Assembly: GCF_000615765.1 (NCBI RefSeq)
Contig: NZ_BAMI01000012.1
Span: 4,009-44,008, forward strand
Direction: 5' to 3'
Length of the DNA stretch: 40,000 bases
Source: Ligilactobacillus equi DSM 15833 = JCM 10991
GTDB lineage: Bacteria > Bacillota > Bacilli > Lactobacillales > Lactobacillaceae
The stretch's first letter is position 1. Each line of letters begins with the position of its first letter. Made by a program: the position numbers and the translations under genes. The notes beneath the pieces were generated by a model. The model was not told where the DNA came from, did not search any database, and saw only the letters and a program-made list of their open reading frames with translations. Shown piece after piece: positions 3,298 to 26,843 of this stretch.

Positions 3298-4056
3298 ATG
3301 CTATTGTTTAGTAAAATCGCAAAAGAGAAAGTAGAGGACATTTTTATGAACGAATTAGAATCTATTGGATCAGAACGTGTCCAAGTGATTAATCACAAGA
3401 TGGATAAATTGATTGAAAAAGACCTTAGAAAAACTATTTTAGAAGTTTATTTGGCTTTCGAAATTTCGGAAGTCTACAGCGAATCAGCTTACCAGCTAAT
3501 TATTTATGGTAAGCGTAATGCTAATAACGAGAACACGTATAGATTTTTAATTGACAACTTAAATATTATGGATCTGTACACTTACGATTATTCAGAAAGA
3601 GATTTAGACGCCTTAAAAGACGATTTAGCCCAAACAGGTAAACGTAATGGTGTCTTACTTGATGTACGACGTATCGCTCAATTGTTAGACTTGAGTCAAT
3701 CGAATATTAGTCGTGCTGTTAAAATGCTAACTAAGACAACTTGTAGCATGTGCGAAGTTGCAGATTTAAACTTAGTGTCAAAAGACGGACTTATTAATAC
3801 TGTTACAAATACACCATATTTCTACCGTAAGATTACTAATAAGGTGATGCGAGCTTTAGCACATAATGGTAGAACTATTCTTACTCAAGAAGAATTAGCG
3901 GAAAGAACTGGTTTGGATTTAGAAAAAATCAAGCATCCCGAGTTATTTTGTCGTAATAAAGATGAATACTTTGATGCGTTGGCTAAAATTCAACAGGCAG
4001 TTGTTCCATACGATTTAGACTGGTTTGGAAAAAGAGGAACTCAAAGAAAGGGGTAG
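3298..4056 (+). CDS. hypothetical DNA-binding (HTH) protein; possible plasmid replication/maintenance protein
   Basis: 252-aa ORF. The ATG at 3346 after GTAGAGGA is the more likely start. HTH-like segment RRIAQLLDLSQSNISRAVKML. Preceded by a 230-bp AT-rich intergenic region. Confidence 0.4.
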   Translation: MLLFSKIAKEKVEDIFMNELESIGSERVQVINHKMDKLIEKDLRKTILEVYLAFEISEVYSESAYQLIIYGKRNANNENTYRFLIDNLNIMDLYTYDYSERDLDALKDDLAQTGKRNGVLLDVRRIAQLLDLSQSNISRAVKMLTKTTCSMCEVADLNLVSKDGLINTVTNTPYFYRKITNKVMRALAHNGRTILTQEELAERTGLDLEKIKHPELFCRNKDEYFDALAKIQQAVVPYDLDWFGKRGTQRKG

Positions 4057-4063
4057 TTGACGG

Positions 4064-4828
4064 ATGACCGATTCGCTCTATTCAACTGAAAAAGAAACTG
4101 AAATGTTTAAAAAACAAGTTAAAGAATTGAAAGAAATGAGTCCATTAGTTAATAATGCCTTTATTGCTAAAAAAATTGGTGTATCATTAGGCACTATAAC
4201 TCGTATTATGAATGACGTGCTATTAATTGCTCCAAAATATAGAGAACGGTGGGAATTTGCTTATCCCATTGTTTACCGTGAGGTTTCTGAAGTAAAAGAC
4301 TTATCTTTGGAAAAAGTCAAAGCTGTATTATTAGAAAAGTTTGAAGAAGATAAAGATGGTTTTTCTAGAACAGTTGGAAGGCAAAAGCGTAGTATTAAGC
4401 AATATATCAAAAAATTTGCAACACATAAAGCTTTGCTTGTGTGGTATTATCGTGTCTTCAATCTACCCGATACAGATACTTATACTTTATATCAACGCGA
4501 AAAAGAAAACCAAGGAAAAAATGTACTAAAAGATCTTTCTGAAATTGGTTTTAACAAACGTACAATTAAGTTGTGTGCAGGCAAGGTTCCAACAAAGCAG
4601 GAACAAAACGCTGTTGATCTGTATGAGTGTTATCAACTTGCTCAAAAGTGCTTGAATAAGTTTGGTTCATTAAAGGAAGTGTGTCAAAACGTTAAAATTA
4701 CACCTGCTAAAGTAAGTCACGTTAAAGATAAGTATGATTACGACAATGACGAGATGTTATTAGCGTTACTCTTGTTCGACAAATGGCGTTATGCTTATAA
4801 AGCAAAAGCATCAAACTTAGCAAGCTAA
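4064..4828 (+). CDS. hypothetical protein with N-terminal HTH
   Basis: 254-aa ORF starting 8 nt after the upstream stop. HTH-like AFIAKKIGVSLGTITRIMND. Confidence 0.4.
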   Translation: MTDSLYSTEKETEMFKKQVKELKEMSPLVNNAFIAKKIGVSLGTITRIMNDVLLIAPKYRERWEFAYPIVYREVSEVKDLSLEKVKAVLLEKFEEDKDGFSRTVGRQKRSIKQYIKKFATHKALLVWYYRVFNLPDTDTYTLYQREKENQGKNVLKDLSEIGFNKRTIKLCAGKVPTKQEQNAVDLYECYQLAQKCLNKFGSLKEVCQNVKITPAKVSHVKDKYDYDNDEMLLALLLFDKWRYAYKAKASNLAS

Positions 4829-4864
4829 ATATTGCTAACACATCAGGAAACGAGGTGCACTTAG

Positions 4865-5362
4865 ATGAGTTATTCTACTAAAACCACTTATGTACAAGGC
4901 AATTTTTCAGTTGTCCCTAAACAAGAAAAAGAGATGGCACTTTTTAACTTATATTATAAAGATACATTAATTGGTATCTTTGACAACGATGGTTATGTTC
5001 AAAAACTCAATACGACAGACTTTGATTTTTCAGCTGAGCAGACAGGAAAAATCTTAGAATTTGCAACAGAAGCCATTGACGACTATAATTCCAATTCGGA
5101 GCTAACGTATGACGGTTTTAAACGTTTAGCGGAAGAGTTAGGCTTTGAGTGTTATGGTGATGAGCGTATCTGTAGTTTAGCTAATGTTAATGGAAAAATA
5201 TGCATTATTAGCAAAATTACACCTTATGCATTTAGTACTATGCGCTTAGGATTTGAGTTGCTAACAAATGAGCAAAAAGAAAAAGTTATGGATTTAGCCC
5301 GAAAACTGGCACAAACTCCTTTAGAAAGAAGGTATGTTTTTGGAAAAGCTCAAGAAAATTAA
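4865..5362 (+). CDS. hypothetical protein
   Basis: 165-aa ORF with a GAGGTG RBS. No motif recognised. Confidence 0.4.
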   Translation: MSYSTKTTYVQGNFSVVPKQEKEMALFNLYYKDTLIGIFDNDGYVQKLNTTDFDFSAEQTGKILEFATEAIDDYNSNSELTYDGFKRLAEELGFECYGDERICSLANVNGKICIISKITPYAFSTMRLGFELLTNEQKEKVMDLARKLAQTPLERRYVFGKAQEN

Positions 5363-6089
5363 AGAGTTACTAAATGAAAAGCAGTTAATCGGATTGTTTT
5401 TGACTGGTTCAACGCTTTACAACGCAAAGTTAGATGATAACCAAGAAACTGACTACATTGCAGTAGTTGCAGATGTACCGCAAGACTTCTTAACTGGGAA
5501 ATTCGTTTCTGAACAGTTGATTGAAGGGGATGTAGACATTAAGATTTACTCTTTCAGGCAATTCGTACAATTAGTTCTCAAAGGTAATCCTAATATTTTA
5601 GAGTTGTTTGTTGATAAATCGTGCTTGTTGTATGCAACAGATCAGTTCAAAGGCTTTTATGATGAACTAATTGAGTTCGTCTTTGAAATGGCAAGAGGAA
5701 AGTTGTTAAAAGCTCTTTTAGGTATGACTTTTAGCAATTTAAAACGAATTAAAAATAGCCAAGATAAAACTGGTAAAGCTGTATTTAGTGTGTTGAAAAA
5801 TATTCAGTACATTAATCAAATTACAACTAACGGGAAAATCATTAGCGTTGATTTCTCAAATATCAAAAATGTTAAGCAAAAAGAAAAATGGACTGTTAAA
5901 GAAATTGATGACTTAGAAAAGCAGATTGAACAAGCTAAGCAGTCATGTAATTCAGCTATGGAAAAATTAGAATATAACTCTGATTTGGTAGATAAGTTCA
6001 ATATCATGAGCTTTAAGTTTCTGCAAACAGAAGTAGTACCTACTTTTTATGTGCAAATGAGAAGGCAATGTTGCAGCATTTTTATCTAA
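5334..6089 (+). CDS. hypothetical protein, weak similarity to predicted nucleotidyltransferases
   Basis: 251-aa ORF overlapping the upstream gene by 29 nt. The N-terminal LFLTGSTLYNAKLDDNQETDYIAVV resembles the G-S ... D-x-D minimal NTase fold motif. Assignment is tentative. Confidence 0.35.
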   Translation: MFLEKLKKIKELLNEKQLIGLFLTGSTLYNAKLDDNQETDYIAVVADVPQDFLTGKFVSEQLIEGDVDIKIYSFRQFVQLVLKGNPNILELFVDKSCLLYATDQFKGFYDELIEFVFEMARGKLLKALLGMTFSNLKRIKNSQDKTGKAVFSVLKNIQYINQITTNGKIISVDFSNIKNVKQKEKWTVKEIDDLEKQIEQAKQSCNSAMEKLEYNSDLVDKFNIMSFKFLQTEVVPTFYVQMRRQCCSIFI

Positions 6090-6186
6090 AGAAGACGCTT
6101 TAAAGTCTAGCGAAGAAACTAAGAAATTACTTAAAAGTAAGGACGATATTTCTGAATATCAAGTCAACGTTTACGAGTTTGATTCG

Positions 6187-6341
6187 TGATGTTCTGATGT
6201 ATTGGTGAGATGATGATTATCGGGATGCTTCCGGTGTTACCTACTATGTGCAGGCGTGACTTGTCTGTGTAGGTGTTGCTCTAGTGAAAACAACAGTGAT
6301 ACTTTTTCCTTTCTGTTTCCCTATGTATGTAGGGGGGTCTT
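6187..6341 (+). repeat. cluster of decayed type I-E CRISPR-repeat-like units upstream of cas8e
   Basis: Best unit is 6314-6341, TGTTTCCCTATGTATGTAGGGGGGTCTT, against consensus GTGTTCCCTACGTATGTAGGGGTAATCC. A second unit is 6234-6261 (GTGTTACCTACTATGTGCAGGCGTGACT). A third is ~6254-6281 (..CTTGTCTGTGTAGGTGTTGCTC), which resembles the decayed terminal repeat of array 1. A weak unit lies at ~6187-6214. The 32 nt between 6282 and 6313 are spacer-sized. Confidence 0.5.
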
Positions 6342-6371
6342 TGCAAAGTATTTAATACTTTTGGAGATGAT

Positions 6372-6503
6372 GTGAAAGAAAAGATTAAAGACTTGCCAAA
6401 ATTAACAATCGTTAAAATCAGATCATACAATTACTGCTCAAAAGTTGCAAAAAATGGAACTTTAGCACAACTAACCAAATTGCAAAATGCTGCTAAATAT
6501 TAG
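6372..6503 (+). CDS. 43-aa mini-ORF (VKEKIKDLPKLTIVKIRSYNYCSKVAKNGTLAQLTKLQNAAKY)
   Basis: GTG start 6 nt after a GGAG. It is followed by a terminator hairpin and lies between the decayed repeats and cas8e. Too short for the ORF track. Confidence 0.3.
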   Translation: MKEKIKDLPKLTIVKIRSYNYCSKVAKNGTLAQLTKLQNAAKY

Positions 6504-6524
6504 GCAGATTTTGCACTACAATAA

Positions 6525-6579
6525 ATACCCCCTTAACCTAATAATGGTGTACACATTACAGGTAAGGGGGTATTTTTTC
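6525..6579 (+). terminator. rho-independent terminator
   Basis: 11-bp stem ATACCCCCTTA / TAAGGGGGTAT (6525-6535 / 6563-6573) followed by TTTTTT. The loop is long, about 27 nt. Confidence 0.5.
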
Positions 6580-6865
6580 GCAATTTTACGGCTTAGTTTT
6601 ATTATACACGTTTCTCATATTTTAGTCAAAGACAGATGGCAGAGTATTCCTCGTTTATTTTTCACCTAAAACAATAAGTATATCGCTTATATCACTTGCT
6701 TTTTTATCAATAAATTCGACAGAAACAATCGTATAAAAAACGACAACTTTCCTTGGATTTTTCTGCTAATTTTTCTTGAAAAATATACAAAAAGGAGTTA
6801 TCATAATTACATAATTAATAAACGACGTAAACATCGTAAAAAATACGAAAATGAGGTGATGCATA

Positions 6866-8653
6866 GTGGACAAAACCTTTCAAAAGAAGTCTTTTAATCT
6901 AGTTACTGATAACTGGATAAATGTGTTAAATGGGGATTTCGAAATCGAAACAATTAGCTTAAAAGATTTTTTTACACACGCTAAGGATTATATTTCACTA
7001 GCAGGAGAATCAGAAGCACAAAATCTTTCAGTTTTACGTTTTCTGTTAGCTATCATGCACAAGACTTATTCTATCGAAAATGAAGTAAGCCCTACTGATA
7101 ACAAAGAACAAATTGAAAAAGCGGCTCTTAATAAATGGAAACAAATTTACAAGAACTATCGTGCTGATGAAGTGGTAGCTTATTTAGAAGAAAACCAAGC
7201 TAGTTTTGACTTGTTTGGAGATAAGCCTTTCTACCAAGTAACTAGAACTCAATACAATGAGTTAGTTCCAGATAACAAGCAAATCAATGCTAAGAAATTA
7301 AAAGATCTTAATAACAGAGCAAATGATAGTGTGGCTGTAACTGGGACAATTACGGTTAAGCAATTTAAACGTACTATTTCTGAAAGTAGTAATACTCCTA
7401 ATTTATTTGCTTTAGAAAGTGAACGCTACAAGAATAAAATTACATTTGATGAATTAGCTCGCTGGTTAATTAGTTTCCAAGGTTATACAGCCACGTCTGA
7501 CAAAACAGCCATTAAGAACAAAGAAAAATTTAGTAAGTCTCCGGGTTGGCTGTTTAAAATTAATCCTGTTTTTGCAGTAGGGGATGATATGTTTGACACA
7601 CTCATGCTTAATTTAAAACTTGATAGCCCTAATAAGCAAAAACCCGTTTGGGAATATGATAACCCACTAGCTTATATTGATAAGCTTAGAACGCTAGATA
7701 AGCCTAATAATATCACTGAATTATATACAAATTTATCTCGTGCGGTATGTATTGAATGGGATGATTTTGGACGTCCTGCAATCTTCTCAGCAGGGTTACC
7801 ACAATTTGATTCAGCTGATTATTACAACGTAGAGCCTATGACAAGCTGGCGTGTTCTTAAAAAAGATATTGTCTTACCAAATACCAAAAAGCCTGATGAA
7901 TTTACCACAGCCTTATGGCGAAGTATTGGAGAATTCATTCCATTACCACACGTTGAAATTCAAGACGGCACCAAAGACAATTCTAAAAAGAGAAAGTCTC
8001 CTAAAACTAAAAAACCATTACGAGAAACACCTAACGTTGGACTCATGGAGTGGTTAACTTTACTTCGAAATAACAGCATTACAGAGTCAATCTTGACAAA
8101 TAAAACATTGACTTTGAAGAATGTATTGCTACTTAAAAGCCAACAAGCAGACGGCTTGCCAGTAGATGATTTCAATGATTCTTTTGATTTCAATGCAGAC
8201 CTACTTGTCCCAACTGATTCTGACTCTAGTGATTTAGCACATGGTGATGTGAAGTTCTTAATTGCTGATGCTTTAGAACGAATCCGTTTAGTTCACAATG
8301 CTTTAGCGCTAGCAGCTAAAGATATTGCTGAACTACGCTATGGGGAAAAAGGGCAAAACAACTCGAAGTTTGTTAATGAGCAAGTTAAGAGTCTTTATAA
8401 CAAGTTAGATGATAGCTTTAATGAATGGTTTAGTTCCATTGACCCAACAGGTGATTTAGTAGAAAAATCTGACGAGTTAAATGAAGTCCTACGTAAAATT
8501 ACATACAACTTTAAGTCTAAGTTGTATGTAAGTGCTTCTAGCAAAGAAATCAATGGTACTACGGTTGAAACTAAAGCTGGAAAGACCGTCAACAAAAACA
8601 TTTATACTGTTCTTAATTCATTTGATTTTAAAATTAGAAATATTTTGAGGTGA
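6866..8653 (+). CDS. cas8e: Cas8e (Cse1/CasA), type I-E Cascade large subunit
   Basis: 595-aa ORF with a GTG start after a GAGGTGA RBS. The N-terminal FNLVTDNWINV matches the conserved Cse1 N-terminus (E. coli NLLIDNWIPV). First gene of a cas11-cas7-cas5-cas6e series. Confidence 0.88.
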   Translation: MDKTFQKKSFNLVTDNWINVLNGDFEIETISLKDFFTHAKDYISLAGESEAQNLSVLRFLLAIMHKTYSIENEVSPTDNKEQIEKAALNKWKQIYKNYRADEVVAYLEENQASFDLFGDKPFYQVTRTQYNELVPDNKQINAKKLKDLNNRANDSVAVTGTITVKQFKRTISESSNTPNLFALESERYKNKITFDELARWLISFQGYTATSDKTAIKNKEKFSKSPGWLFKINPVFAVGDDMFDTLMLNLKLDSPNKQKPVWEYDNPLAYIDKLRTLDKPNNITELYTNLSRAVCIEWDDFGRPAIFSAGLPQFDSADYYNVEPMTSWRVLKKDIVLPNTKKPDEFTTALWRSIGEFIPLPHVEIQDGTKDNSKKRKSPKTKKPLRETPNVGLMEWLTLLRNNSITESILTNKTLTLKNVLLLKSQQADGLPVDDFNDSFDFNADLLVPTDSDSSDLAHGDVKFLIADALERIRLVHNALALAAKDIAELRYGEKGQNNSKFVNEQVKSLYNKLDDSFNEWFSSIDPTGDLVEKSDELNEVLRKITYNFKSKLYVSASSKEINGTTVETKAGKTVNKNIYTVLNSFDFKIRNILR

Positions 8654-8658
8654 TTATT

Positions 8659-8883
8659 ATGCAGCCACGTAGTGTAAGAATTTACAGTATCGAACCAAAT
8701 GGAAATCGGAAACTACTTGCTACTGTTTTTCAAGCTATATATTATTCTGAAGGCTTTTCTTCTTCGTGGGAGCCAACTGACGCACTTTTAGATGAGATTA
8801 GTTCTCTGAGGAGTGATTTTGCTTATCGGGATTGCGTGCTTGAGGTAACGTCTGGTGATGGAGCCTTTGATGCTAGATACTAG
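8659..8883 (+). CDS. unknown 74-aa protein inserted between cas8e and cas11
   Basis: The ATG at 8659 sits 7 nt after GAGGTGA, which overlaps the cas8e stop, so translation looks coupled. The track ORF 8650-8883 uses an upstream GTG. No family recognised. Not part of canonical I-E operons. Confidence 0.5.
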   Translation: MQPRSVRIYSIEPNGNRKLLATVFQAIYYSEGFSSSWEPTDALLDEISSLRSDFAYRDCVLEVTSGDGAFDARY

Positions 8884-8913
8884 GACTTATGTTATTTCAA
8901 GTAACTTATTAAT

Positions 8914-8963
8914 GCGAGAAATACAGAAAATACGAGATGCGAGAGATATAAGAAACACGAGAG
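8914..8963 (+). repeat. imperfect 25-bp tandem duplication upstream of cas11
   Basis: Units are GCGAGAAATACAGAAAATACGAGAT (8914-8938) and GCGAGAGATATAAGAAACACGAGAG (8939-8963), matching at 19 of 25 positions. It contains four RCGAGA motifs and abuts the cas11 RBS. Confidence 0.6.
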
Positions 8964-8976
8964 GTGGGACGCTTCA

Positions 8977-9585
8977 ATGCCAACAAAAGAAGTCAAGTAC
9001 GCTACTTTAAGAGCGGTAGGTAGAATTTATCGTAATGGTGCAATGAATAAAGCTGTTTTAGCTGATTTTAGGAATGCAACATCTATCGATAAATTACGCT
9101 CACAGGACTCCTTAGAGGCTATTTTAAGTAGTTTAGAGGAAGAGGACCTAAGTGTAACTGGCAATCCTTCAAAGGGCGAAAAAGCCGCTTTTGGAGCCTT
9201 ACACTTATACGCTATTGCACAGCAAAGACAAATTGCTTCTGCTTTAACCTTAACCAAAAAAGAACATGATACATCATTATTTGCTGTCTTAGGTAAATTA
9301 CGGTATGTATCTGATGAATTACGCATTAGTTTAGACCGAGTTTTAAAGCCCGTTCTAACAAGACCTAATTATGAGATGGCTGTACGTGAATTATCACATG
9401 CGCTTAAAATTGCCAAGCAACATGTTCAAAATATGAATATTGATTTTGCTCAACTGGCAGGCGATTTGTACTATATGCAATACAGCTTACAAAGTGCTAG
9501 GAAAGTACAACTACTATGGGCCCAAAAATACTATCGTCCATACAATGTAGTTACTAGTGAAGAAAACAAGGAAAACGCAAAATAA
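8977..9585 (+). CDS. cas11: Cas11 (Cse2/CasB), type I-E small subunit
   Basis: 202-aa helical ORF between cas8e and cas7. Cse2-like segment KAAFGALHLYAIAQQ. Call rests on position and size. Confidence 0.78.
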   Translation: MPTKEVKYATLRAVGRIYRNGAMNKAVLADFRNATSIDKLRSQDSLEAILSSLEEEDLSVTGNPSKGEKAAFGALHLYAIAQQRQIASALTLTKKEHDTSLFAVLGKLRYVSDELRISLDRVLKPVLTRPNYEMAVRELSHALKIAKQHVQNMNIDFAQLAGDLYYMQYSLQSARKVQLLWAQKYYRPYNVVTSEENKENAK

Positions 9586-9600
9586 GAAAGGAATTTCCAA

Positions 9601-10641
9601 ATGACACTATATTTAGATTTATCTGTAATCCAAACTGTTCCATCTGCAAACATCAATCGGGATGAAGTAGGCGCTCCTAAGAAAGCATATTACGGTGGCG
9701 TTTTACGTTCACGTGTATCTTCTCAAGCATGGAAACACGCTATTAGAGAAGATTTTGCTAAAGCTAATGTTGATACCGCATATCGTACTAAGTTAGTTCC
9801 TAAAAAGTTAGCCAAGCTATTACAAGCTAAAAATGGTGATTTATCTGATGAAGAAGCTATGGAATTATCTGTTGCTACTTTAACAAAGGCTAAGATTTCA
9901 GTTACTAAAGACAATGAATTAAGTGCCTTAATGTTTATTAGCAAGGGCCAACTTGAAAAGCTTGCTGATTACGTTTTGGAAAACAAGGAATTAAATGAAG
10001 ATCAGTTAAAAGTGATTTTACAATCTAACAATTCTGCTGATTTAGCCTTATTTGGTCGTATGGTAGCAAGTGATCCTACGCTTTCTGTTGATGCATCTGT
10101 GCAAGTGGCCCACACGATTTCAACTCATGAAATTGTACCTGAATTTGACTACTACACCGCTTTAGATGACTTAAAGACAAGTGCAGGGGCGGCAATGGTA
10201 GGGACTACTGAATATAACTCTGCAACGCTTTTCCGCTATGCAAATATCAATTTAGATGAATTATTGCACAACTTAGGCGACAAGAACATTACTCTTGATT
10301 CAGCAACTCAATTTATCAAGTCATTTATTAGCTCAATGCCTACTGGATACCAAAATGCTTTTGCTAACAAGACTATCCCTGAATATGTAATGCTCACACT
10401 ACGTAATGATACTCCGGTTAACTTGGTATCTGCTTTTGAAGAACCTGTTCAATCAACTAGTGGTTTTTCTCGTAAATCAGTAGAGCAGCTTGAAAAAGAA
10501 TACAAGAATACACTTAAATTCTTAGATGAACCAGTAGCAAACTTTGTATTAAGCAAGTATGACTCATCGTTAGAAGAACAAGTAAATAATCTTGCTGACC
10601 TGTTAGATAAAGTAAAGGATTCCTTTGTAAAGTTGGTGTAA
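9601..10641 (+). CDS. cas7: Cas7e (Cse4/CasC), Cascade backbone subunit
   Basis: 346-aa ORF. N-terminal LSVIQTVPSANINRDEVGAPKKAYYGGVLRSRVSSQAWKHAIR matches the CasC hallmark (N-x-N-R-D ... G-x-P-K ... R-x-R-x-S-S-Q). Confidence 0.92.
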   Translation: MTLYLDLSVIQTVPSANINRDEVGAPKKAYYGGVLRSRVSSQAWKHAIREDFAKANVDTAYRTKLVPKKLAKLLQAKNGDLSDEEAMELSVATLTKAKISVTKDNELSALMFISKGQLEKLADYVLENKELNEDQLKVILQSNNSADLALFGRMVASDPTLSVDASVQVAHTISTHEIVPEFDYYTALDDLKTSAGAAMVGTTEYNSATLFRYANINLDELLHNLGDKNITLDSATQFIKSFISSMPTGYQNAFANKTIPEYVMLTLRNDTPVNLVSAFEEPVQSTSGFSRKSVEQLEKEYKNTLKFLDEPVANFVLSKYDSSLEEQVNNLADLLDKVKDSFVKLV

Positions 10642-10644
10642 GTT

Positions 10645-11400
10645 ATGCGGACATTAACAATTAGACTAACTGGTGTTTTTCAATCTTACGGTGGAGAAAC
10701 AAATTTTTCTAGGAGAGGAACTAAGCCTTATCCTACAAAAAGTTCAATCATTGGAATGATTGCCGCTTCTCTTGGCTACAGACGTGATGACGATGCACAA
10801 ATCAACGAATTAAATAAATTGAATTATGCTGTTCGAATCGAGCAACTTGGCGATGTAACAACTGATTTCCATATTGTTCATTATGAAGGATACATCACTG
10901 GTAATAGGGGCCAGGTTAGCGGTTCTAAAATCACTTATCGAGACTATTTGCAAGATACAGTATTTTTAGTTGCTATTAGCAGTGAAGATGATGAGTTAAT
11001 TAATACAATTCGTCATTCACTAGCTCATCCCAAATTTCAACTATTTCTCGGTCGACGAGCAAGTGCTCCGGCAGGCGTTTTAAAGACAAGTATTTTTCCA
11101 AATATGACACCAATTCAGGTCTTAGAAAATGAGTCTTGGCAAGCAGCAGATTGGTATAAAAAACGTTTGAGAAAGTCTGAAGTAGCCTTAAAAATAGTAG
11201 CTGATGTTCAACTACTAAAAGGGCAGAAATACAAAATTTCTAGAGATACAGTTATCTCATTTTCTGAAAAAAAGCGAAAACATGGTTATCGAGGAATTGC
11301 AACTAAAACTGTTAAAGTTGCTAATGATAAGTATGTTGCTACTTCAACAAAGCATGATCCGTTATCGTTTTTTGAAACTGAAGTAATCGCGACAAAGTGA
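10645..11400 (+). CDS. cas5: Cas5e (CasD)
   Basis: 251-aa ORF. N-terminal LTIRLTGVFQSYGGETNFSRRGTKPYPTKSSIIGMIAASLGYRRDD matches the CasD pattern (L-x-G-P-x-Q-S-W-G ... R-x-T ... P-T-K-S ... G-L-x-A-A-A-L-G). Confidence 0.9.
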   Translation: MRTLTIRLTGVFQSYGGETNFSRRGTKPYPTKSSIIGMIAASLGYRRDDDAQINELNKLNYAVRIEQLGDVTTDFHIVHYEGYITGNRGQVSGSKITYRDYLQDTVFLVAISSEDDELINTIRHSLAHPKFQLFLGRRASAPAGVLKTSIFPNMTPIQVLENESWQAADWYKKRLRKSEVALKIVADVQLLKGQKYKISRDTVISFSEKKRKHGYRGIATKTVKVANDKYVATSTKHDPLSFFETEVIATK

Positions 11401-11436
11401 TGACGAAAAACATTGATTTGACAATGTTTCTTTAGT
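11401..11436 (+). promoter_or_regulatory. short leader of CRISPR array 1
   Basis: Only 36 nt separate the cas5 stop from the first repeat. Shares TTGACAA and AATGTTTYTTTAG with the leader of array 2. Confidence 0.5.
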
Positions 11437-11908
11437 GCATTCCCTACGTATGTAGGGGTGAACCTCAAGGTCTAAGAAAAGACCGACGCTATAAAACGCA
11501 TTCCCTACGTATGTAGGGGTGATCCTGACAGTCATACTAAAAGTTATAGAAGGGAGGGGCATTCCCTACGTATGTAGGGGTAATCCTGCTGAGTACATTA
11601 TTGAACAAGTTGATGAAGGAAATTTCCTACGTATGTAGGGGTAATCCTATCACTCCTGCAGCGGTTCATAATTTCAAGGAGTAGTCCCCACGTATGTAGG
11701 GGTGATCCTGCTGTGTTAATACTGGGGGAAACTGCAGATTCAGTTGTTCCCTATGTATGTAGGTGTGGCTCTATCGGCTTTTTGCGTGTTTCTTAAATGA
11801 TGTTCCCTACTGTTATGGGTGTTTTCCTGTATGTGTCTTCCTGTGTTCAAGGGCGATATTAGCTTGTATATTTGAAAGTTGTTTCCTACTTTTATTGTAG
11901 GAGTTTTA
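11437..11908 (+). CRISPR. CRISPR array 1 (type I-E repeat), located between cas5 and cas6e
   Basis: Six 28-nt repeats start at 11437, 11498, 11559, 11620, 11681 and 11744 (GCATTCCCTACGTATGTAGGGGTGAWCC). Period is 61 nt and spacers are 33 nt, the last 35. Decayed repeat-like units follow at ~11799-11828 and 11881-11908. Palindromic core is CCCTAC-GTAT-GTAGGG. Orientation is the same as the E. coli I-E repeat. Confidence 0.9.
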
Positions 11909-11923
11909 TAGAAAGGAAAAATT

Positions 11924-12541
11924 ATGTATTATTTATCACGAGTAGAAATTAACAATAAGAATGCAAAAGAAATTAAAGAATTCAACCACTTAGGTGCTTA
12001 CCATAATTGGGTAGAGCAAATGTTTCCTGAAAATATTGAAAATGGTGTTCGCCCACGTCATTTATGGCGTATTGATATCTTAAATGGTGTAAAATATCTA
12101 TTAGTACTAAGTGAAGAAAAACCTGATTTGGATATTTTAGAAAGTCATGGTATAAAAGGAACTGGAATTATTAAGGAATATGATAAGTTGCTAGACACCA
12201 TTAAAATAGATTCAGTATTAAAGTTTCGCTTAACAGCCAATCCTGTACGCCAATTTAATGGAAAAGCATATCCTCACGTTACCGTAAAACAACAAAGAAA
12301 GTGGTTGTTAGATAGAGCTGAAGCTAACGGCTTTACGTTAGATGATAATTACTTTACAATCGTTAGTCGTGATTATGTTCCATTAAAACGGAAAAATAGC
12401 AGAGGTTGCAATTTAAGTCGGGTATCTTTTGAAGGTATTTTAAAGGTAACTGATGTTGATAGCTTTAAAGATATATTAGTTAATGGCTTAGGGAGAGAAA
12501 AGGCGTTTGGTATGGGACTCATGACTGTTGTCCCATTTTAG
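11924..12541 (+). CDS. cas6: Cas6e (CasE) crRNA endoribonuclease
   Basis: 205-aa ORF with a GAAAGGA RBS. N-terminal MYYLSRVEIN and C-terminal GLGREKAFGMGLMTVVPF match CasE hallmarks (M-Y-L-S-R ... G-I-G-R-A-K-A-F-G-C-G-L-L). Confidence 0.9.
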   Translation: MYYLSRVEINNKNAKEIKEFNHLGAYHNWVEQMFPENIENGVRPRHLWRIDILNGVKYLLVLSEEKPDLDILESHGIKGTGIIKEYDKLLDTIKIDSVLKFRLTANPVRQFNGKAYPHVTVKQQRKWLLDRAEANGFTLDDNYFTIVSRDYVPLKRKNSRGCNLSRVSFEGILKVTDVDSFKDILVNGLGREKAFGMGLMTVVPF

Positions 12542-12604
12542 CAAAGTAACTAAATTTTATCTAGATGTGTTAGCAAGATGTTGACAAATCAATGTTTTTT
12601 TAGA
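12542..12604 (+). promoter_or_regulatory. leader of CRISPR array 2
   Basis: 63 nt lie between the cas6e stop and the first repeat. Contains TTGACAA (12581) and AATGTTTTTTTAG, a paralogous copy of the array-1 leader end. Confidence 0.5.
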
Positions 12605-13364
12605 GTGTTCCCTACGTATGTAGGGGTAATCCCGTCCAAGCTTATCTTGAAATGCCTTAGCTGCTGTGTTCCCTACGTATGTAGGGGTAATCCCTCAAGC
12701 TGGTCTTCCTCGAGCGCCCTTTTTTCGTGTTCCCTACGTATGTAGGGGTAATCCTAAAAGTGGCCACGGAGGATTAGGCGGTAATAAGTGTTCCCTACGT
12801 ATGTAGGGGTGAACCTTCTCGTTTTGCTGGTGGGGCGGACATGGGTTCGTGTTCCCTACGTATGTAGGGGTGAACCTTAAAGGTTGGGAAGAAGAACTAA
12901 GGACGGGAAGTGTTCCCTACGTATGTGGGGGTGAACCTGCAAATGTCCCTGCTCGTCCAAAAGACGCCCAGTGTTCCCTACGTATGTAGGGGTAATCCTA
13001 TATATACATTCAAACCTTGATATTAGCAATTGTGTTCCCTACGTATGTAGGGGTAATCCTGGTGCAGCTGACAAGACTAACCAAGTTAAGACGTGTTCCC
13101 TATGTATGTAGGGGTGAGCCTGATTAGTAATGGTATCTTGGTTGCTCTTGATAGGTGTTCCCTACGTATATGGGGGGTGAGCCTATATGTTCAAACCTTG
13201 ATATAGCAAGTAGTGTTCCCCACGTACGTGGAGGTGATTCCGTAGGTGAGGGTAAACCTGTAACACCGGGGTGTACGTTTCTTATTCCCTATGCTTGTAG
13301 GTGTGAACCCATAGATACTATGGATACTATATTTTCTTGTTCCCTATTTATGTAGGTGTGAGTC
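12605..13364 (+). CRISPR. CRISPR array 2 (type I-E), 13 repeats / 12 spacers
   Basis: Repeats start at 12605, 12666, 12727, 12788, 12849, 12910, 12971, 13032, 13093, 13155, 13213, 13282 and 13337. Consensus is GTGTTCCCTACGTATGTAGGGGTAATCC. The first nine sit on an exact 61-nt period. The last four are decayed, and the last four spacers are irregular (34, 29, 41 and 27 nt). Confidence 0.95.
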
Positions 13365-13407
13365 TGTAGAAGTTATTGAGGTTATCCAAAATTAAATAAG
13401 TAGTGCA

Positions 13408-14508: not shown

Positions 14509-14710
14509 AGTAATGAAAGATGGTGATATGGTGAAGCACTATGGTCGTCATAAGGATAATCATTATTACAAGGGAATTAAAAATATTTTCTACCGAAAGC
14601 AGCATAGTTCCTGCGAAACTAAAAAGATACAGTATGCGACTAAACTGGATGCACTTATCGATATATCAGCGATACAGTACCAGAAAAAGAAAAACCGATG
14701 TCAACAGTAA
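14486..14710 (+). pseudogene. 5' part of a small gene apparently interrupted by the IscB element
   Basis: 74-aa ORF (likely start MKDGDMVKHY at 14513) that stops exactly where the structured omega-RNA region begins. A start-less C-terminal fragment in the same orientation lies at 16455-16571. Confidence 0.3.
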
Positions 14711-15040
14711 CCCCTCTATTCACTGAAGTAAGGGGCTTGAAATGAAAGTTTTAAGTCTGCTCACTTTGATGAGGATTCTGGAGCAATTCAGAATTTGTTG
14801 TCTAGACTAAGCAATCAGCTTCGGCTGATTGGAAAACTACGTTATTTTAGTCATCATACCTTATGAATGATACCCTAGTTTTAAGCTCTATGGAGGATAG
14901 TAAACAAGGATAAGGTTAATGTCCTAGTCGGCCCCTCATAACAAGCTAAAATAACATTGTCGAAGGGTAACCACATGTAACTGTTAGTTCTCTGATAGTT
15001 GCGTGATAAGGTACATGCTACCTTATAAAAAATGAAAGGA
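14711..15040 (+). ncRNA. putative IscB omega-RNA scaffold (guide expected at or just upstream of the 5' edge)
   Basis: 340-nt ORF-free gap directly upstream of iscB on the same strand. Stable hairpins: CCCCT..AGGGG (14711-14735), ATTCTG..CAGAAT (14775-14794), CAATCAGC-TTCG-GCTGATTG with a UUCG tetraloop (14812-14831), and ATAAGGTA-CATGC-TACCTTAT (15006-15026) abutting the RBS. IscB omega-RNAs are known to be encoded in exactly this position. Confidence 0.6.
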
Positions 15041-15050
15041 GAAAATCAAA

Positions 15051-16391
15051 ATGCAAAATCGAGTTTTTGTCATTAATAAACATGGTGAAGCTTTAATGCC
15101 TTGCAAACCGAGAACTGCTAGAAAATTATTACAAAGTGGCAAGGCTAAGCCTATTAAGAAAGAACCATTCACCATTCAACTATTGTACGGTGCAAGTGGT
15201 TATAAGCAACCTATTAACTTAGGTGTTGATAGCGGGCAACGTCACATTGGGCTTGCGGTAACAAGTCAAGATAAAGTTTTATTTCAAAGCGAAGTCGAAT
15301 TGCGCCAAGACGTTAAGAAACTTCTTGAAAGAAGAAAAACTTATCGTCAAGGTAGACGGAACCGTAAGACACGTTACCGTCCAATGCGTTTTTTAAATCG
15401 CATCAAAAGTAGAAAAAATAACTGGTTGCCACCGTCGGTACAAAGTAAAGTTAATCACAACATTAATTGGATTAAACGCATGTTAACGGTGTTACCAAAC
15501 CCTGAATTACACATCGAAGTTGGTAAATTCGATATGCAAAAAATGAAAGACCCTGCCATTAAAGGTGAAGGTTATCAAAAAGGGGACTTGTACGGCTATC
15601 AAACGGTTAAGCAATACGTCTTAGCTCGTGACCAATATAAATGCCAAGTCTGCAAGAAAAAAGGCGGTAAGTATAAAGGAAAAATCGTTAAACTCAAAAT
15701 TCACCACATTATTTACCGCTCACAGGGTGGTACCAATGCCCCTGCTAACTTAATTACCGTTTGTGCTGATTGCCACACTTATCAAAATCATCAACCAGGT
15801 GGCATCTTATATGCCTGGTATCAGAAGAAAAAGAAAGTAACTAAGCCTTTGAAAGGCGCAACCTTTATGAATATTCTCCGTAGGAGATTATGGAATGCCT
15901 TTCCTGATGCCAAGTTCCAGTATGGGGCGCAAACCACTTTACAACGGGCAAATTTAGGCTTGGCAAAATCGCACTACAATGATGCCGTTACAATTAGTGG
16001 TATTGAACATATTAGTGAAAAGCCAACAAGTATCGTGATGTTTAAACAATTTCGCAAGAAAAAGCGTTTCTTACACGAAGCAACCGCACGCAAAGGATGT
16101 AAAGACAAGGAAGGGCACAGAAACAAGAATGTCACCAGTAAACGGAATGCCAAAAACACCAAAGAAGCAAACGGCTTTTGGCTTAATGATTATGTCAGAA
16201 TCAAGAACAGTAAACTTAAAGGCTACATTAGTGGCTTTACAGGGAGTTCCTGTTATATCAAGGATTGTCTTGGCAATTATCTGACTCTTAATACGTACAA
16301 GCAAACAAACTTGTCTAATGTTGAATTTATTAATCATAGAAATAATTGGTGTAATACCAGTATTTCCGAACAAAGATACGTTATGGAATAA
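15051..16391 (+). CDS. iscB: IscB, RNA-guided RuvC/HNH nuclease (Cas9 ancestor family)
   Basis: 446 aa. PLMP domain (KHGEALMPCKPRTARKLL). RuvC-I (LGVDSGQRHIGLAV). Arg-rich bridge helix (RRKTYRQGRRNRKTRYRPMRF). RuvC-II (ELHIEVGKFD). HNH (CQVCKKKG ... IHHIIYRSQGGTNAPANLITVCADCH). RuvC-III (KSHYNDAVTI). C-terminal TID-like domain. AAAGGAG RBS. Confidence 0.87.
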   Translation: MQNRVFVINKHGEALMPCKPRTARKLLQSGKAKPIKKEPFTIQLLYGASGYKQPINLGVDSGQRHIGLAVTSQDKVLFQSEVELRQDVKKLLERRKTYRQGRRNRKTRYRPMRFLNRIKSRKNNWLPPSVQSKVNHNINWIKRMLTVLPNPELHIEVGKFDMQKMKDPAIKGEGYQKGDLYGYQTVKQYVLARDQYKCQVCKKKGGKYKGKIVKLKIHHIIYRSQGGTNAPANLITVCADCHTYQNHQPGGILYAWYQKKKKVTKPLKGATFMNILRRRLWNAFPDAKFQYGAQTTLQRANLGLAKSHYNDAVTISGIEHISEKPTSIVMFKQFRKKKRFLHEATARKGCKDKEGHRNKNVTSKRNAKNTKEANGFWLNDYVRIKNSKLKGYISGFTGSSCYIKDCLGNYLTLNTYKQTNLSNVEFINHRNNWCNTSISEQRYVME

Positions 16392-24787: not shown

Positions 24788-24903
24788 ATTTTTCTTCCTT
24801 TCTAAGTCCTAAGTAGTCTTAATCTAATTAATCTAATTTTTAATAATAATTATAACTTTTGGCACGGAAAAAAGCACGTAAGAAAATATTGCTCAATGCT
24901 AAG

Positions 24904-24981
24904 TTACTTAATTTTGTTACTTAATTTTGTTACTTAATTTTGTTACTTAATTTTGTTACTTAATTTTGTTACTTAATTTTG
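24904..24981 (+). repeat. six perfect tandem copies of the 13-bp unit TTACTTAATTTTG (iteron or centromere-like)
   Basis: Exact copies at 24904, 24917, 24930, 24943, 24956 and 24969. Confidence 0.95.
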
Positions 24982-25041: not shown

Positions 25042-25124
25042 AGCAAACCCAAACATCCCGATCACCAAGCAAATAATCAATATGTTTGAGTGCTTAAATG
25101 GATGGGATGCTTGGCTTATTTGCT
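25042..25124. repeat. GCCAAGCAT-family hairpin element, copy 3 (left arm degenerate)
   Basis: Right arm GGGATGCTTGGCTTATTTGCT (25104-25124) is identical over 21 nt to 28916-28936. The imperfect inverted copy AGCAAACCCAAACATCCC lies at 25042-25059. The element abuts the stop codon of the PTS gene. Confidence 0.55.
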
Positions 25125-26843
25125 ATTTTTGTGCATGAGGAATGGAAAAACCGTCAGTCATTCCAGTTGTTGATTCTTGTTCACGTTTTAAATACGCGTT
25201 GTAAACTTTTTCGCTGTCAGTAGCTAATCCCTGTTCTTTAGCCATTTCAGCTAAGAATTGTAATGCTTCATTTCTTGAATTAACTTTTACTCCTACTTTG
25301 ATATTTTGTTCTTCTAAAATATCAGCTGGGTTGAGCTTATTTGAAACGATATTTTCTTTTGCGTTACTTGTTTCTTTGTCATCCTCTTCAATAACTTCCC
25401 CTGTAAAGATGTCAACTCTTGGGCCATTTGCTCGAGCTTTTTTTACATCTGAGCCTGCGATTAAGGCAAGAAGTATCCCAGATGCTATTGCACCAATTAA
25501 AATGTAGATAACCCACATTAATGGGTGGTTAACTAACGGTAAGATAATAAAGCCACCATGAGGAGCTGGAACTTGAACTTTACCTACGTAAGATAGAGCT
25601 GCGGCGATTGCTGAACCTACCATAAATGCCGGAATATTCTTAATAGGATTCTTAGCTGCGAATGGAATAGCACCTTCAGTAATATGCGTTGATCCTAATA
25701 AAGCATTGACATAACCTGCTGAACGTTCAGACTTTGAGTATGCTTTTGGCTTGAGTAAAACTGCAACTGTTGTTGCCAAAGGAGGTGCAATACATGCTGC
25801 TGAAACCCCTGCCATAAAGTAGTAATTACCTTGTGCTAATAATGCTGTACCTGTTAAATAAGCTGCTTTATTGACTGGGCCACCAAAGTCAAAGGCACAC
25901 ATAGCGCCAACAATAATACCTAATAAGATAGGGCTTACATTTTGAACTGTTTTTAGCCAGTCCATTAAGCCTGTATTTAAAGCTGCCATTGGTGTATTAA
26001 TTAATGTCATCACCACTCCAGATAGTAATACAGAAAATACTGGAGTTAAGAAAATTGACTTCAAGCCCCTAAATTGCTTGTCAGGCAACCAAGTAAAGCA
26101 CATTTCTACAAGCTTTACGATGTAGGCTGCGATAAAACCACCAACTAATGCTCCTAAAAAGCCCGTACCGCCATTAAGTGCAATCATACCTGTAACTAGA
26201 CCCGCAACTAATCCGGCACGCTTAGATAACGATTCAGCAATAAATGCTGCGAATACAGGAGCCATTAAATTAATGGAAACACCACCGATTGATTTCAAGG
26301 TAGCTGCGATAAGGTTGTATTGGGCACTTTTTGGGTCATACGAGTAAATTCCCCAGAAAAATGAAATTGCTGTTAAAACACCACCTGCTACAACAAAAGG
26401 TAGCATGTGTGATACACCGTTATATGTGATACACCGTTCATCAAAGCTGTATACCATTGTTGACCAATGCTATCAGAGCTTTGATTTTTTGTGATGTTAG
26501 AGTTAGACTTTCCAACTAATTCTGGTTTCCAAATAGGTGCTGTAAAGGACTTATTAATTAGTCCTTCTGCATCTTTGATTGCTTTTGCAACTGGAACCTT
26601 AATTACATGTTTTCCTGCAAAACGATCTGGGTCTACGTCAATATCTGATGCAATAACAACTGCTTTTGCTTCCTTAATTTCTTCTTCTGTTAGAACGTGT
26701 TCAGTACCTGATTGACCGTGTGTTTCAATCTTTATTGTGTACCCTAATTTTTTTGCTGCTTCTTCTAGAGCTTCTTGTGCCATAAATGTGTGTGCTATAC
26801 CGGTAGCACAACCTGTTGCTCCAATAATGTCGTATTTTTGCAT
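25123..26843 (-). pseudogene. fruA: fructose-family PTS EIIB-EIIC-(EIIA) gene, frameshifted and 3'-truncated
   Basis: EIIB motif GATGCATGIAHTFMAQEAL. EIIC is a multi-TM region (LPFVVAGGVLTAISF...). A 17-bp tandem duplication (26405-26421 / 26422-26438) splits EIIB from EIIC; removing one copy restores ...ALMNGVSHMLPFVVAGG. The EIIA domain stops 3 residues after its active-site His (...GFSIPHAQK*). Confidence 0.8.

What the first reader, a model, noticed from the sequence alone, without database searches (positions are those of the whole stretch)
8650..8976. Unassigned 74-77 aa ORF translationally coupled to cas8e and wedged before cas11, followed by a 25-bp tandem repeat
Seen: the ATG at 8659 lies 7 nt after a GAGGTGA that overlaps the cas8e stop. 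The product (MQPRSVRIYSIEPNGNRKLLATVFQAIYYSEGFSSSWEPTDALLDEISSLRSDFAYRDCVLEVTSGDGAFDARY) matches nothing I recognise. Its codons look more G+C-rich than the flanking cas genes. Canonical I-E operons have cas11 directly after cas8e. Here there is also a 93-nt gap containing two imperfect 25-bp repeats (8914-8963) with four RCGAGA motifs abutting the cas11 RBS. Inference: it could be a novel Cascade accessory subunit, a regulator or anti-CRISPR-like modulator of its own system, or an inserted passenger gene.
Basis: partly seen in the sequence, partly recalled or inferred. Interest (0 to 1): 0.6.

Follow-up and report, generated by a model that had tools for sequence, protein, structure and literature searches.

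The report
Orphan small gene inserted before cas11
A 318-bp species-specific insertion between two genes of a stripped-down CRISPR operon in Ligilactobacillus equi carries a 74-codon reading frame that now sits on the start signal the next gene (cas11) normally uses; it is probably translated, but it has no relatives anywhere and nothing shows that it works with the CRISPR complex.

Summary
An intact 74-codon ORF (8659-8883) starts 5 nt after an 8-nt Shine-Dalgarno match (GAGGTGAT, 8647-8654) that overlaps the cas8e stop. A 93-nt gap follows, with a real 25-bp tandem duplication (8912-8961), then cas11 (8977).

In 29 Lactobacillaceae type I-E loci, and in this genome's own second I-E locus, cas11 starts 0-29 nt after cas8e. 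Many of them use the same layout, with the SD inside the cas8e stop. So the ORF occupies the ancestral cas11 initiation site, and the 318 bp are an insertion.

Two measures favour a true coding frame:
- ORF length: P about 0.004-0.02 in shuffles.
- Codon-position GC pattern: GC1-GC3 = 0.24, like the flanking cas genes; P = 0.004 against random open frames.

Codon usage and AlphaFold confidence do not discriminate; a spurious antisense ORF scored about the same.

The protein is acidic (pI 4.5) and a complete orphan. It has no homologue in protein, genome, metagenome, phage or plasmid searches, and no family or fold match. There is no CRISPR-like repeat or spacer match, so it is not a CreTA/CrePA-type module, and it shows no similarity to Cas11.

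Most likely it is a young or captured passenger ORF, translated by inherited signals. A role with Cascade remains untested. Interest is low to moderate.

The parts
6866..8653 (+). cas8e (Cse1), 595 aa, full length
   Evidence: Pfam PF09481 E 8.9e-57 covering profile positions 1-446 of 450. It aligns to relatives up to residues 586-595, so the downstream ORF is not a displaced C-terminus.
8647..8654 (+). Shine-Dalgarno GAGGTGAT overlapping the cas8e TGA stop; in relatives this is the cas11 ribosome-binding site
   Evidence: Sequence read. In relatives cas8e ends ...AAAGGGTGA or ...GAGGGGTGA and the cas11 ATG follows 0-29 nt later.
8659..8883 (+). 74-codon orphan ORF (P0001), acidic 8.4-kDa product, stop TAG 8881-8883
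   Evidence: Length P 0.004-0.02. GC1/2/3 = 0.51/0.46/0.27; GC1-GC3 P = 0.004 against random open frames and 0.057 against alternative-frame ORFs. pI 4.5. No homologues.
8884..8976 (+). 93-nt untranslated gap between the ORF stop and cas11
   Evidence: RNA fold is no better than shuffles, z = 0.34. No terminator-like site.
8912..8961 (+). Two tandem 25-bp units (20 of 25 identical), each with two RCGAGA motifs; found only here in the genome
   Evidence: 4 such loci in the window against 0.07 in shuffles. The only other genomic 20/25 match is a lone chance-level one on C128.
8961..8967 (+). Second SD (GAGGTGG) serving cas11, 9 nt before its ATG, directly after the tandem repeat
   Evidence: Sequence read.
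8977..9585 (+). cas11 (Cse2), 202 aa, N-terminus MPTKEV homologous to relatives (MPKT, MAKT, MTKT)
   Evidence: NCBIfam TIGR02548 E 1.8e-18. tblastn aligns it from residues 1-17 in relatives. Junction sequences.

Best explanation
A 318-bp, lineage-specific insertion (8659-8976) sits in the few bases that normally separate the cas11 ribosome-binding site from the cas11 ATG. That site lies inside the cas8e stop codon. The locus is a Cas3-, Cas1- and Cas2-less type I-E Cascade operon on a defence or mobile island of Ligilactobacillus equi.

Shown:
- The insertion is absent from every comparable locus.
- Its first codon lies where cas11 starts in relatives.
- ATGC occurs at both edges (8659-8662 and 8977-8980).
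- cas11 keeps its homologous N-terminus and has a second SD at the 3' end of the insert.

Inferred:
- Ribosomes that finish cas8e re-initiate on the 74-codon ORF and make an acidic 8.4-kDa protein.
- cas11 translation is no longer coupled to cas8e and depends on the new SD beside a 25-bp slippage duplication.
- The length of the frame and its codon-position composition say it is, or recently was, a real coding sequence. It is either a small gene captured together with its downstream intergenic region, or a young gene.
- With no relatives and no link to any Cas protein, its most likely status is a passenger expressed by inherited signals, not a Cascade subunit.
For: - Junction anatomy in 29 relatives: the SD overlaps the cas8e TGA, and the cas11 ATG lies -11 to 29 nt away. 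The host's own second I-E locus is likewise adjacent.
- The window has the same SD-in-stop layout, but it leads into the ORF.
- Cas8e and Cas11 are both full length.
- ORF length: P 0.004 (ATG, + strand) and 0.023 (any start, either strand).
- GC1-GC3 = 0.243, against 0.209 +/- 0.077 for 74-codon pieces of the local cas genes, 0.021 +/- 0.083 for random open frames (P 0.004) and -0.012 +/- 0.156 for alternative-frame ORFs (P 0.057).
- The stretch is unique in the genome.
- The exact protein seems to be present in a second isolate, L. equi DPC 6820. It has no variant cluster member, and its source pattern matches that of the invariant Cas5.
Against: - There is no homologue at all, so no conservation or selection signal is available.
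- The two strains differ by only 0.9% in Cas proteins, so an identical 74-aa ORF is expected by chance (P 0.52).
- Codon usage lies between genes and spurious ORFs: 3.7th percentile of true gene pieces and 96th percentile of spurious ORFs. It falls below the 5th percentile of local cas pieces on synonymous usage.
- The AlphaFold2 single-sequence model is mediocre (pLDDT 67, pTM 0.51). A spurious antisense ORF scores about the same (pLDDT 65.5, pTM 0.36).
- The strong SD is inherited from cas11, so it is not independent evidence that the ORF is a selected gene.
- No donor sequence for the insert was found.
- Expression was not measured.
Confidence: 0.5

Rival explanations
1. Chance or decaying frame. 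The insert is non-functional DNA. The ORF is open by luck or as a fragment of a former gene, is read only because it landed on the cas11 start signals, and its product has no role.
For: - It is an orphan in about 5.8 and 1.8 billion-protein libraries and in six-frame scans.
- Codon usage is intermediate.
- The AlphaFold score is no better than that of a spurious control ORF.
- The locus shows much other decay and rearrangement, including an array inside the operon and no cas3, cas1 or cas2.
Against: - Open length: P 0.004-0.02.
- GC1 > GC2 > GC3 pattern typical of local genes: P 0.004 against random open frames.
- The frame is apparently intact in two isolates.
Confidence: 0.28
2. Cascade-linked factor. 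The small acidic protein binds Cascade (Cas8e or Cas11) or a partner. It acts as a lineage-specific accessory subunit, a modulator of this nuclease-less complex, or an anti-CRISPR-like inhibitor, for instance of the host's complete I-E system on contig C117.
For: - It is embedded in and translationally coupled to the Cascade operon.
- It is small and acidic, pI 4.5, as many anti-CRISPRs are (the comparison rests on general knowledge).
- The operon lacks Cas3, so an unusual mode of action is plausible.
- The same genome holds a second I-E locus, whose Cascade genes match the window's by tblastn, plus one Cas1-family hit on the same contig.
Against: - It is not present in any other I-E locus examined.
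- It has no similarity to Cas proteins, to solved structures including deposited anti-CRISPRs, or to PADLOC or PHROG families.
- Known anti-CRISPR genes lie in anti-defence clusters beside aca genes, not inside cas operons (general knowledge; PMC7648647 title and abstract).
- No interaction could be modelled with the tools at hand.
Confidence: 0.15
3. CreTA/CrePA-like guard. The ORF, or a mini-ORF in the repeat region (ATG CGA GAG ATA TAA at 8937), is a toxin kept silent by Cascade through a degenerate repeat-derived guide. This would make the cell addicted to the Cascade genes.
For: - Small genes captured between cas genes are known. One example is the 103-aa CreP toxin in the cas3-csy1 intergenic region of Acinetobacter I-F (bioRxiv 10.1101/2024.01.05.574328).
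- The rare codons CGA and ATA (5.0 and 5.8 per thousand) occur in the repeat units.
Against: - No repeat-like element lies in 8400-9100: the best match to the 28-nt repeat is 14 of 28, which is background.
- No array spacer, and no flank of the solitary upstream repeat, matches 8400-9100 at 62% or more.
- There is no separate promoter above chance.
- The mini-ORFs have no SD.
Confidence: 0.02
4. Fragment of a BNR/Asp-box beta-propeller gene. The ORF is about one and a half degenerate blades of a Sortilin/BNR-type repeat protein, cut out of a larger gene.
For: The exhaustive phmmer search gave five weak hits (E 9e-6 to 5e-4). Three of them are Sortilin/BNR repeat proteins, each matched in 4-5 stretches. 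The pairwise alignment lines up ...AIYYSEGFSSSWEP... with the ...YRSDDGGTSWRP... units.
Against: - The scores are sums over many copies of one repeat. The best single stretch has a pairwise E of only 0.006.
- The Asp-box D and G are missing.
- No Pfam BNR-type model matches even at E 10.
- The predicted fold contains a helix and gives no propeller match.
Confidence: 0.05

Closest known systems
Canonical Lactobacillaceae type I-E operon junction (cas8e stop overlapping the cas11 Shine-Dalgarno site, cas11 ATG a few bases later)
   Same: The window has the same SD-in-stop layout at the end of cas8e. Cas8e, Cas11, Cas7, Cas5 and Cas6e are full length and in the usual order.
   Different: Here the site starts a 74-codon orphan ORF. 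cas11 lies 318 bp further on with a second SD. The operon also lacks cas3, cas1 and cas2 and has an array between cas5 and cas6e.
CrePA/CreTA modules: small toxin genes captured in intergenic regions of cas operons and repressed by Cascade through a repeat-derived CreA guide (bioRxiv 10.1101/2024.01.05.574328; PMC8501985; PMC9458426)
   Same: A small extra gene sits between genes of a type I effector operon. In the CreP case it was judged to be captured from a mobile element.
   Different: There is no creA-like degenerate repeat pair, no pseudo-spacer match and no own promoter. The ORF has no KilAC or other domain. Toxicity was not tested.
Anti-CRISPR proteins of type I-E (AcrIE families)
   Same: It is small, acidic, an orphan, and lies on a mobile or defence island.
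   Different: It is located inside and co-translated with a cas operon, not in an acr-aca cluster. It has no sequence match to any PDB chain, including deposited Acr structures. Activity was not tested.
Internally translated or fused Cas11 variants (types I-B, I-C, I-D; PMC11899642)
   Same: They concern how the small subunit is expressed relative to the large subunit gene.
   Different: Here Cas11 is a separate, complete gene, and the extra ORF shows no similarity to it.

Membership tests
Type I-E Cascade subunits (Cas8e, Cas11, Cas7, Cas5e, Cas6e) | Sequence match to a Cas family profile, or similarity to a Cas protein of the same locus | tested here: not met
   There are no NCBIfam or Pfam hits for P0001. 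BLASTP against Cas11 gives E 7.7. Local alignment scores against Cas8e, Cas11, Cas7, Cas5 and Cas6e fall within the shuffle distribution.
Type I-E Cascade subunits (Cas8e, Cas11, Cas7, Cas5e, Cas6e) | Conserved presence at this position in I-E loci | tested here: not met
   It is absent from 29 of 29 related loci and from the genome's own second I-E locus.
Type I-E Cascade subunits (Cas8e, Cas11, Cas7, Cas5e, Cas6e) | Physical assembly into the crRNA-guided complex | not testable with these tools
   No multimer prediction or biochemistry is available here.
CreTA / CrePA (CRISPR-repressed toxin-antitoxin) | Adjacent creA: one or two degenerate CRISPR repeats flanking a pseudo-spacer | tested here: not met
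   The best match to the 28-nt repeat in 8400-9100 is 14 of 28 on either strand, which is background. No repeat family member lies there.
CreTA / CrePA (CRISPR-repressed toxin-antitoxin) | Guide partially complementary to the toxin promoter | tested here: not met
   None of the 15 array spacers or the two flanks of the solitary repeat at 6314 matches 8400-9100 at 62% or more.
CreTA / CrePA (CRISPR-repressed toxin-antitoxin) | Toxicity of the product when derepressed | not testable with these tools
   This needs an expression assay.
Anti-CRISPR (AcrIE) | Homology to a known Acr family | tested here: inconclusive
   There is no match to PDB chains, PHROGs or phage records. No dedicated Acr library was on hand.
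Anti-CRISPR (AcrIE) | Location in an acr-aca operon of a mobile element | tested here: not met
The ORF lies between cas8e and cas11 and is coupled to cas8e.
Anti-CRISPR (AcrIE) | Inhibition of a CRISPR-Cas system | not testable with these tools
   This needs an interference assay.
BNR / Asp-box (Sortilin-Vps10 type) beta-propeller repeat | Match to a curated BNR-type profile | tested here: not met
   There is no Pfam family even at E 10.
BNR / Asp-box (Sortilin-Vps10 type) beta-propeller repeat | Asp-box S-x-D-x-G-x-T-W | tested here: not met
   The ORF has S-E-G-F-S-S-S-W. S1, S7 and W8 are kept; D3 and G5 are lost.
BNR / Asp-box (Sortilin-Vps10 type) beta-propeller repeat | Four-stranded blade fold | tested here: inconclusive
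   The low-confidence model has strands 5-11, 17-24, 59-64 and 70-73 and a helix at 41-51. No propeller appears among the fold matches.

The most novel reading that the evidence does not exclude
The 74-aa acidic protein is a new, lineage-specific partner of a nuclease-less type I-E Cascade. It could be an adaptor or a brake that sets what the Cas3-free complex does after target binding. It could also be an inhibitor that spares the island's own Cascade while blocking the host's complete I-E system. In either case it would be produced in fixed ratio with Cas8e through translational coupling.
Probability: 0.12. Interest if true: 0.65.

Novelty: new variant of a known kind. Interest (0 to 1): 0.27.

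Why it matters
If the ORF is only a passenger, the value is modest. It would be a clean example of an insertion taking over a translationally coupled start site inside a cas operon, with the displaced gene (cas11) rescued by a second ribosome-binding site. It would also warn annotators not to read every small ORF in a cas operon as an accessory subunit.

If the protein does bind Cascade, it would be one of very few extra components known for type I-E. It would also give a handle on what Cas3-less Cascades on mobile elements do. That question is open, and it could be tested with a simple deletion and pull-down in L. equi or a surrogate Lactobacillus host.

Tried and rejected
Homologue searches, all empty apart from the query itself:
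- Word-indexed search of 5.8 billion proteins.
- 400 genomes of the family and 32 other genomes of the genus, by DNA.
- Viral, metagenome and species-representative genome contigs.
- Plasmid and phage records by tblastn and blastn. The only DNA hit was a 34-nt match at E 0.08.
- The exhaustive phmmer search gave only repeat-inflated weak hits.

Family and structure searches, also empty:
- Pfam, NCBIfam, PHROGs, PADLOC and PDB sequences.
- ESM Atlas features: no usable hit. Its structure neighbours are unnamed phage proteins at TM 0.5-0.65, which means little for 74 aa.
- Foldseek against PDB and BFVD found nothing at E 0.001 or better. VIA-align best Z was 5.1, below the tool's own noise guide of about 8.

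Hypotheses rejected:
- The ORF as a diverged duplicate of the cas11 5' end. This was suggested by a shared AGAATTTA(C/T) word and rejected because alignments are no better than shuffles.
- Structured RNA in the gap or at the junction: z = 0.34 and -0.48. Rfam finds only the HEARO RNA elsewhere.
- An internal promoter or terminator: site counts do not exceed shuffles.
- A CreTA-like guard.

Steps that gave nothing usable:
- A class-wide survey of cas8e-cas11 spacing yielded too few I-E loci.
The DNA of the second isolate could therefore not be read, and its ORF status is inferred from cluster records only.
- AlphaFold confidence was tested against a spurious antisense ORF and did not discriminate.
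Full report
**What is there.** The window carries a type I-E effector operon:

| Feature | Coordinates |
|---|---|
| cas8e | 6866-8653 |
| cas11 | 8977-9585 |
| cas7 | 9601-10641 |
| cas5e | 10645-11400 |
| CRISPR array | 11437-11780 |
| cas6e | 11924-12541 |
| second CRISPR array | 12605-13373 |

None of the ORFs I scanned in the window matches Cas3, Cas1 or Cas2. Downstream lie a HEARO/omega RNA with an IscB-type RRXRR-HNH protein, a UvrD-like helicase, a DNA methylase, an Abi_2 protein and a MazE-like protein. This is a defence or mobile island.

The genome is a 2.24-Mb, 158-contig assembly, 89% complete. Names attached to near-identical proteins say Ligilactobacillus equi. The same genome has a second I-E locus on contig C117. 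Its Cascade genes match the window's by tblastn, and the contig also holds one Cas1-family hit.

**The observation.**
- cas8e ends ATT TTG AGG TGA.
- GAGGTGAT (8647-8654) is an 8-nt match to the anti-Shine-Dalgarno sequence and contains the stop codon.
- The ATG follows at 8659, 5 nt after GAGGTGA.
- The ORF stops at 8883.
- A 93-nt gap follows, with two 25-bp tandem units (8912-8961, 20 of 25 identical).
- A second SD, GAGGTGG (8961-8967), precedes the cas11 ATG at 8977.
- Adjacent duplications of this quality are rare by chance: 4 loci in the window against 0.07 per shuffled window. The four RCGAGA motifs are two motifs doubled by that duplication.
GC3 is 0.27, the same as the flanking cas genes.

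**It is an insertion on the cas11 start site.** I fetched 29 type I-E loci from the same family. In all of them cas11 begins -11 to 29 nt after the cas8e stop. In many, cas8e ends ...AAAGGGTGA or ...GAGGGGTGA, so the cas11 SD overlaps the TGA stop and the cas11 ATG follows 5-10 nt later. The genome's own C117 locus is also adjacent.

The window has exactly that layout, TTGAGGTGA-TTATT-ATG, but the ATG opens the orphan ORF. cas11 keeps an N-terminus (MPTKEV) homologous to relatives (MPKT, MAKT, MTKT) and lies 318 bp further on. Cas8e and Cas11 are both full length, so the ORF is not a split-off piece of either. ATGC occurs at both edges (8659-8662 and 8977-8980). This fits an ATG-to-ATG insertion by short-homology recombination, but that is inference. 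One consequence follows: the strong SD is inherited from cas11, so it cannot count as independent evidence that the ORF was selected as a gene.

**Is the frame a real coding sequence?**

For:
- An ATG ORF of at least 74 codons on this strand arises in 0.4% of dinucleotide shuffles of the region. Any ORF on either strand arises in 2.3%.
- The codon-position GC pattern is 0.51/0.46/0.27, so GC1-GC3 = 0.243. Pieces of the local cas genes give 0.209 +/- 0.077. Random stop-free frames of the same composition give 0.021 +/- 0.083 (P 0.004). Alternative-frame ORFs of genuine genes give -0.012 +/- 0.156 (P 0.057).

Neutral:
- Codon-usage log-odds sit between the two classes, at the 3.7th percentile of gene pieces and the 96th of spurious ORFs. 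Synonymous usage is similar.
- The AlphaFold2 single-sequence model (pLDDT 67, pTM 0.51, beta-beta-alpha-beta-beta) is matched by a spurious antisense ORF inside cas8e used as a control (pLDDT 65.5, pTM 0.36).

I put the chance that the frame is, or recently was, truly coding at about 70%.

**Relatives.** There are none. The searches cover:
- a 5.8-billion-protein word index;
- an exhaustive phmmer of 1.8 billion cluster representatives;
- 400 family genomes and 32 other genus genomes;
- viral, metagenome and genome contig collections;
- plasmids and phages.

All returned only the query. The five weak phmmer hits (E 9e-6 to 5e-4) are multi-stretch matches to repeat proteins. Three are Sortilin/BNR propeller proteins, and the ORF's ...YYSEGFSSSWEP... 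lines up with their Asp-box units. Those scores are sums over many copies of one repeat, the Asp-box D and G are missing, and no Pfam BNR model matches even at E 10. I treat this as a weak lead only. No fold match rises above noise, and no PDB sequence matches.

The whole Cascade is itself an outlier. The nearest Cas8e anywhere is 34-41% identical.

**Second isolate.** Cluster records show near-identical Cas proteins on a 45,735-bp contig of L. equi DPC 6820:

| Protein | Differences between isolates |
|---|---|
| Cas8e | 6 of 595 |
| Cas11 | 2 of 202 |
| Cas7 | 3 of 346 |
| Cas6e | 3 of 205 |
| Cas5 | 0 of 251 (no variant on record) |

The differences were counted. The ORF, like Cas5, has no variant member and carries the same extra source label. 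It is therefore probably present and identical in that isolate. At 0.9% divergence, identity over 74 residues is expected half the time (P 0.52), so this says nothing about selection.

**Function: what was tested.**
- A diverged duplicate of cas11, or of any other Cas gene: rejected.
- A CreTA/CrePA-type guard (bioRxiv 10.1101/2024.01.05.574328): rejected. There is no repeat-like element, best 14 of 28, no spacer complementarity and no promoter above chance.
- Structured RNA in the gap: not supported.
- Anti-CRISPR: the protein is small and acidic (pI 4.5) and sits on a mobile island. However, it lies inside a cas operon and matches no known Acr. This remains untested.
- Cascade accessory: it is absent from all other I-E loci, and no interaction test was possible.

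**Verdict.** This is a real, unusual but local feature. A species-specific insertion has placed an orphan, probably translated, small ORF on the ancestral cas11 initiation site of a Cas3-less I-E operon. cas11 is served by a new SD beside a slippage duplication.

| Reading | Probability |
|---|---|
| Passenger or young gene expressed by inherited signals | 0.5 |
| Non-functional chance frame | 0.28 |
| Cascade-linked factor | 0.15 |
| BNR-gene fragment | 0.05 |
| Cre-type guard | 0.02 |

Interest is low to moderate until expression and interaction are tested.

Noticed in passing
window 6866-12541: The Cascade proteins of this Cas3-less locus stand alone. The nearest Cas8e in a 5.8-billion-protein search is 34-36% identical by BLASTP, and at most 41% (47% over partial-length matches) in family genomes. 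The word-indexed Cas11 search found only the second-isolate copy.
   Followed up: partly
G000 contig C117, about 4400-6650 (L042): The same genome holds a second type I-E locus with the canonical adjacent cas8e-cas11 junction. Its Cascade proteins are 31-54% identical to the window's. The island's nuclease-less Cascade therefore coexists with a second I-E Cascade locus; the same contig also gives a Cas1-family hit.
   Followed up: partly
window 24903-24981: Six perfect tandem copies of the 13-nt unit GTTACTTAATTTT (TRF score 158) lie in the intergenic region upstream of a PTS EIIC/EIIA gene (25123-26457, minus strand).
   Followed up: no
window 14703-16391: A HEARO (omega) RNA, Rfam RF02033 at 91 bits, is followed by a 446-aa RRXRR + HNH (IscB-type) protein, 1.3 kb from the second array.
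   Followed up: no
window 11422-11464 and 12590-12632: The sequence just upstream of the first repeat of each array is 86% identical over 43 nt. The leader plus first repeat seems to have been duplicated on either side of cas6e.
   Followed up: no
window 3298-6089: Where cas3 would be expected there are four ORFs of 165-254 aa. They give only weak winged-helix/HTH hits and one RlaP-type nucleotidyltransferase match (5334-6089). The exact product of that last ORF is 251 aa here, while other L. equi records list 292-294 aa forms, so its start or integrity may differ between isolates.
   Followed up: no
protein P0122 (weak phmmer hit): The best weak hit to the ORF is a 1439-aa protein that joins BNR/Sortilin repeats to a STAND-type NTPase. 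This is probably a coincidence. I mention it only because, from my own recollection and unchecked here, STAND NTPases have been linked to Cas3-less I-E variants in Streptomyces.
   Followed up: no
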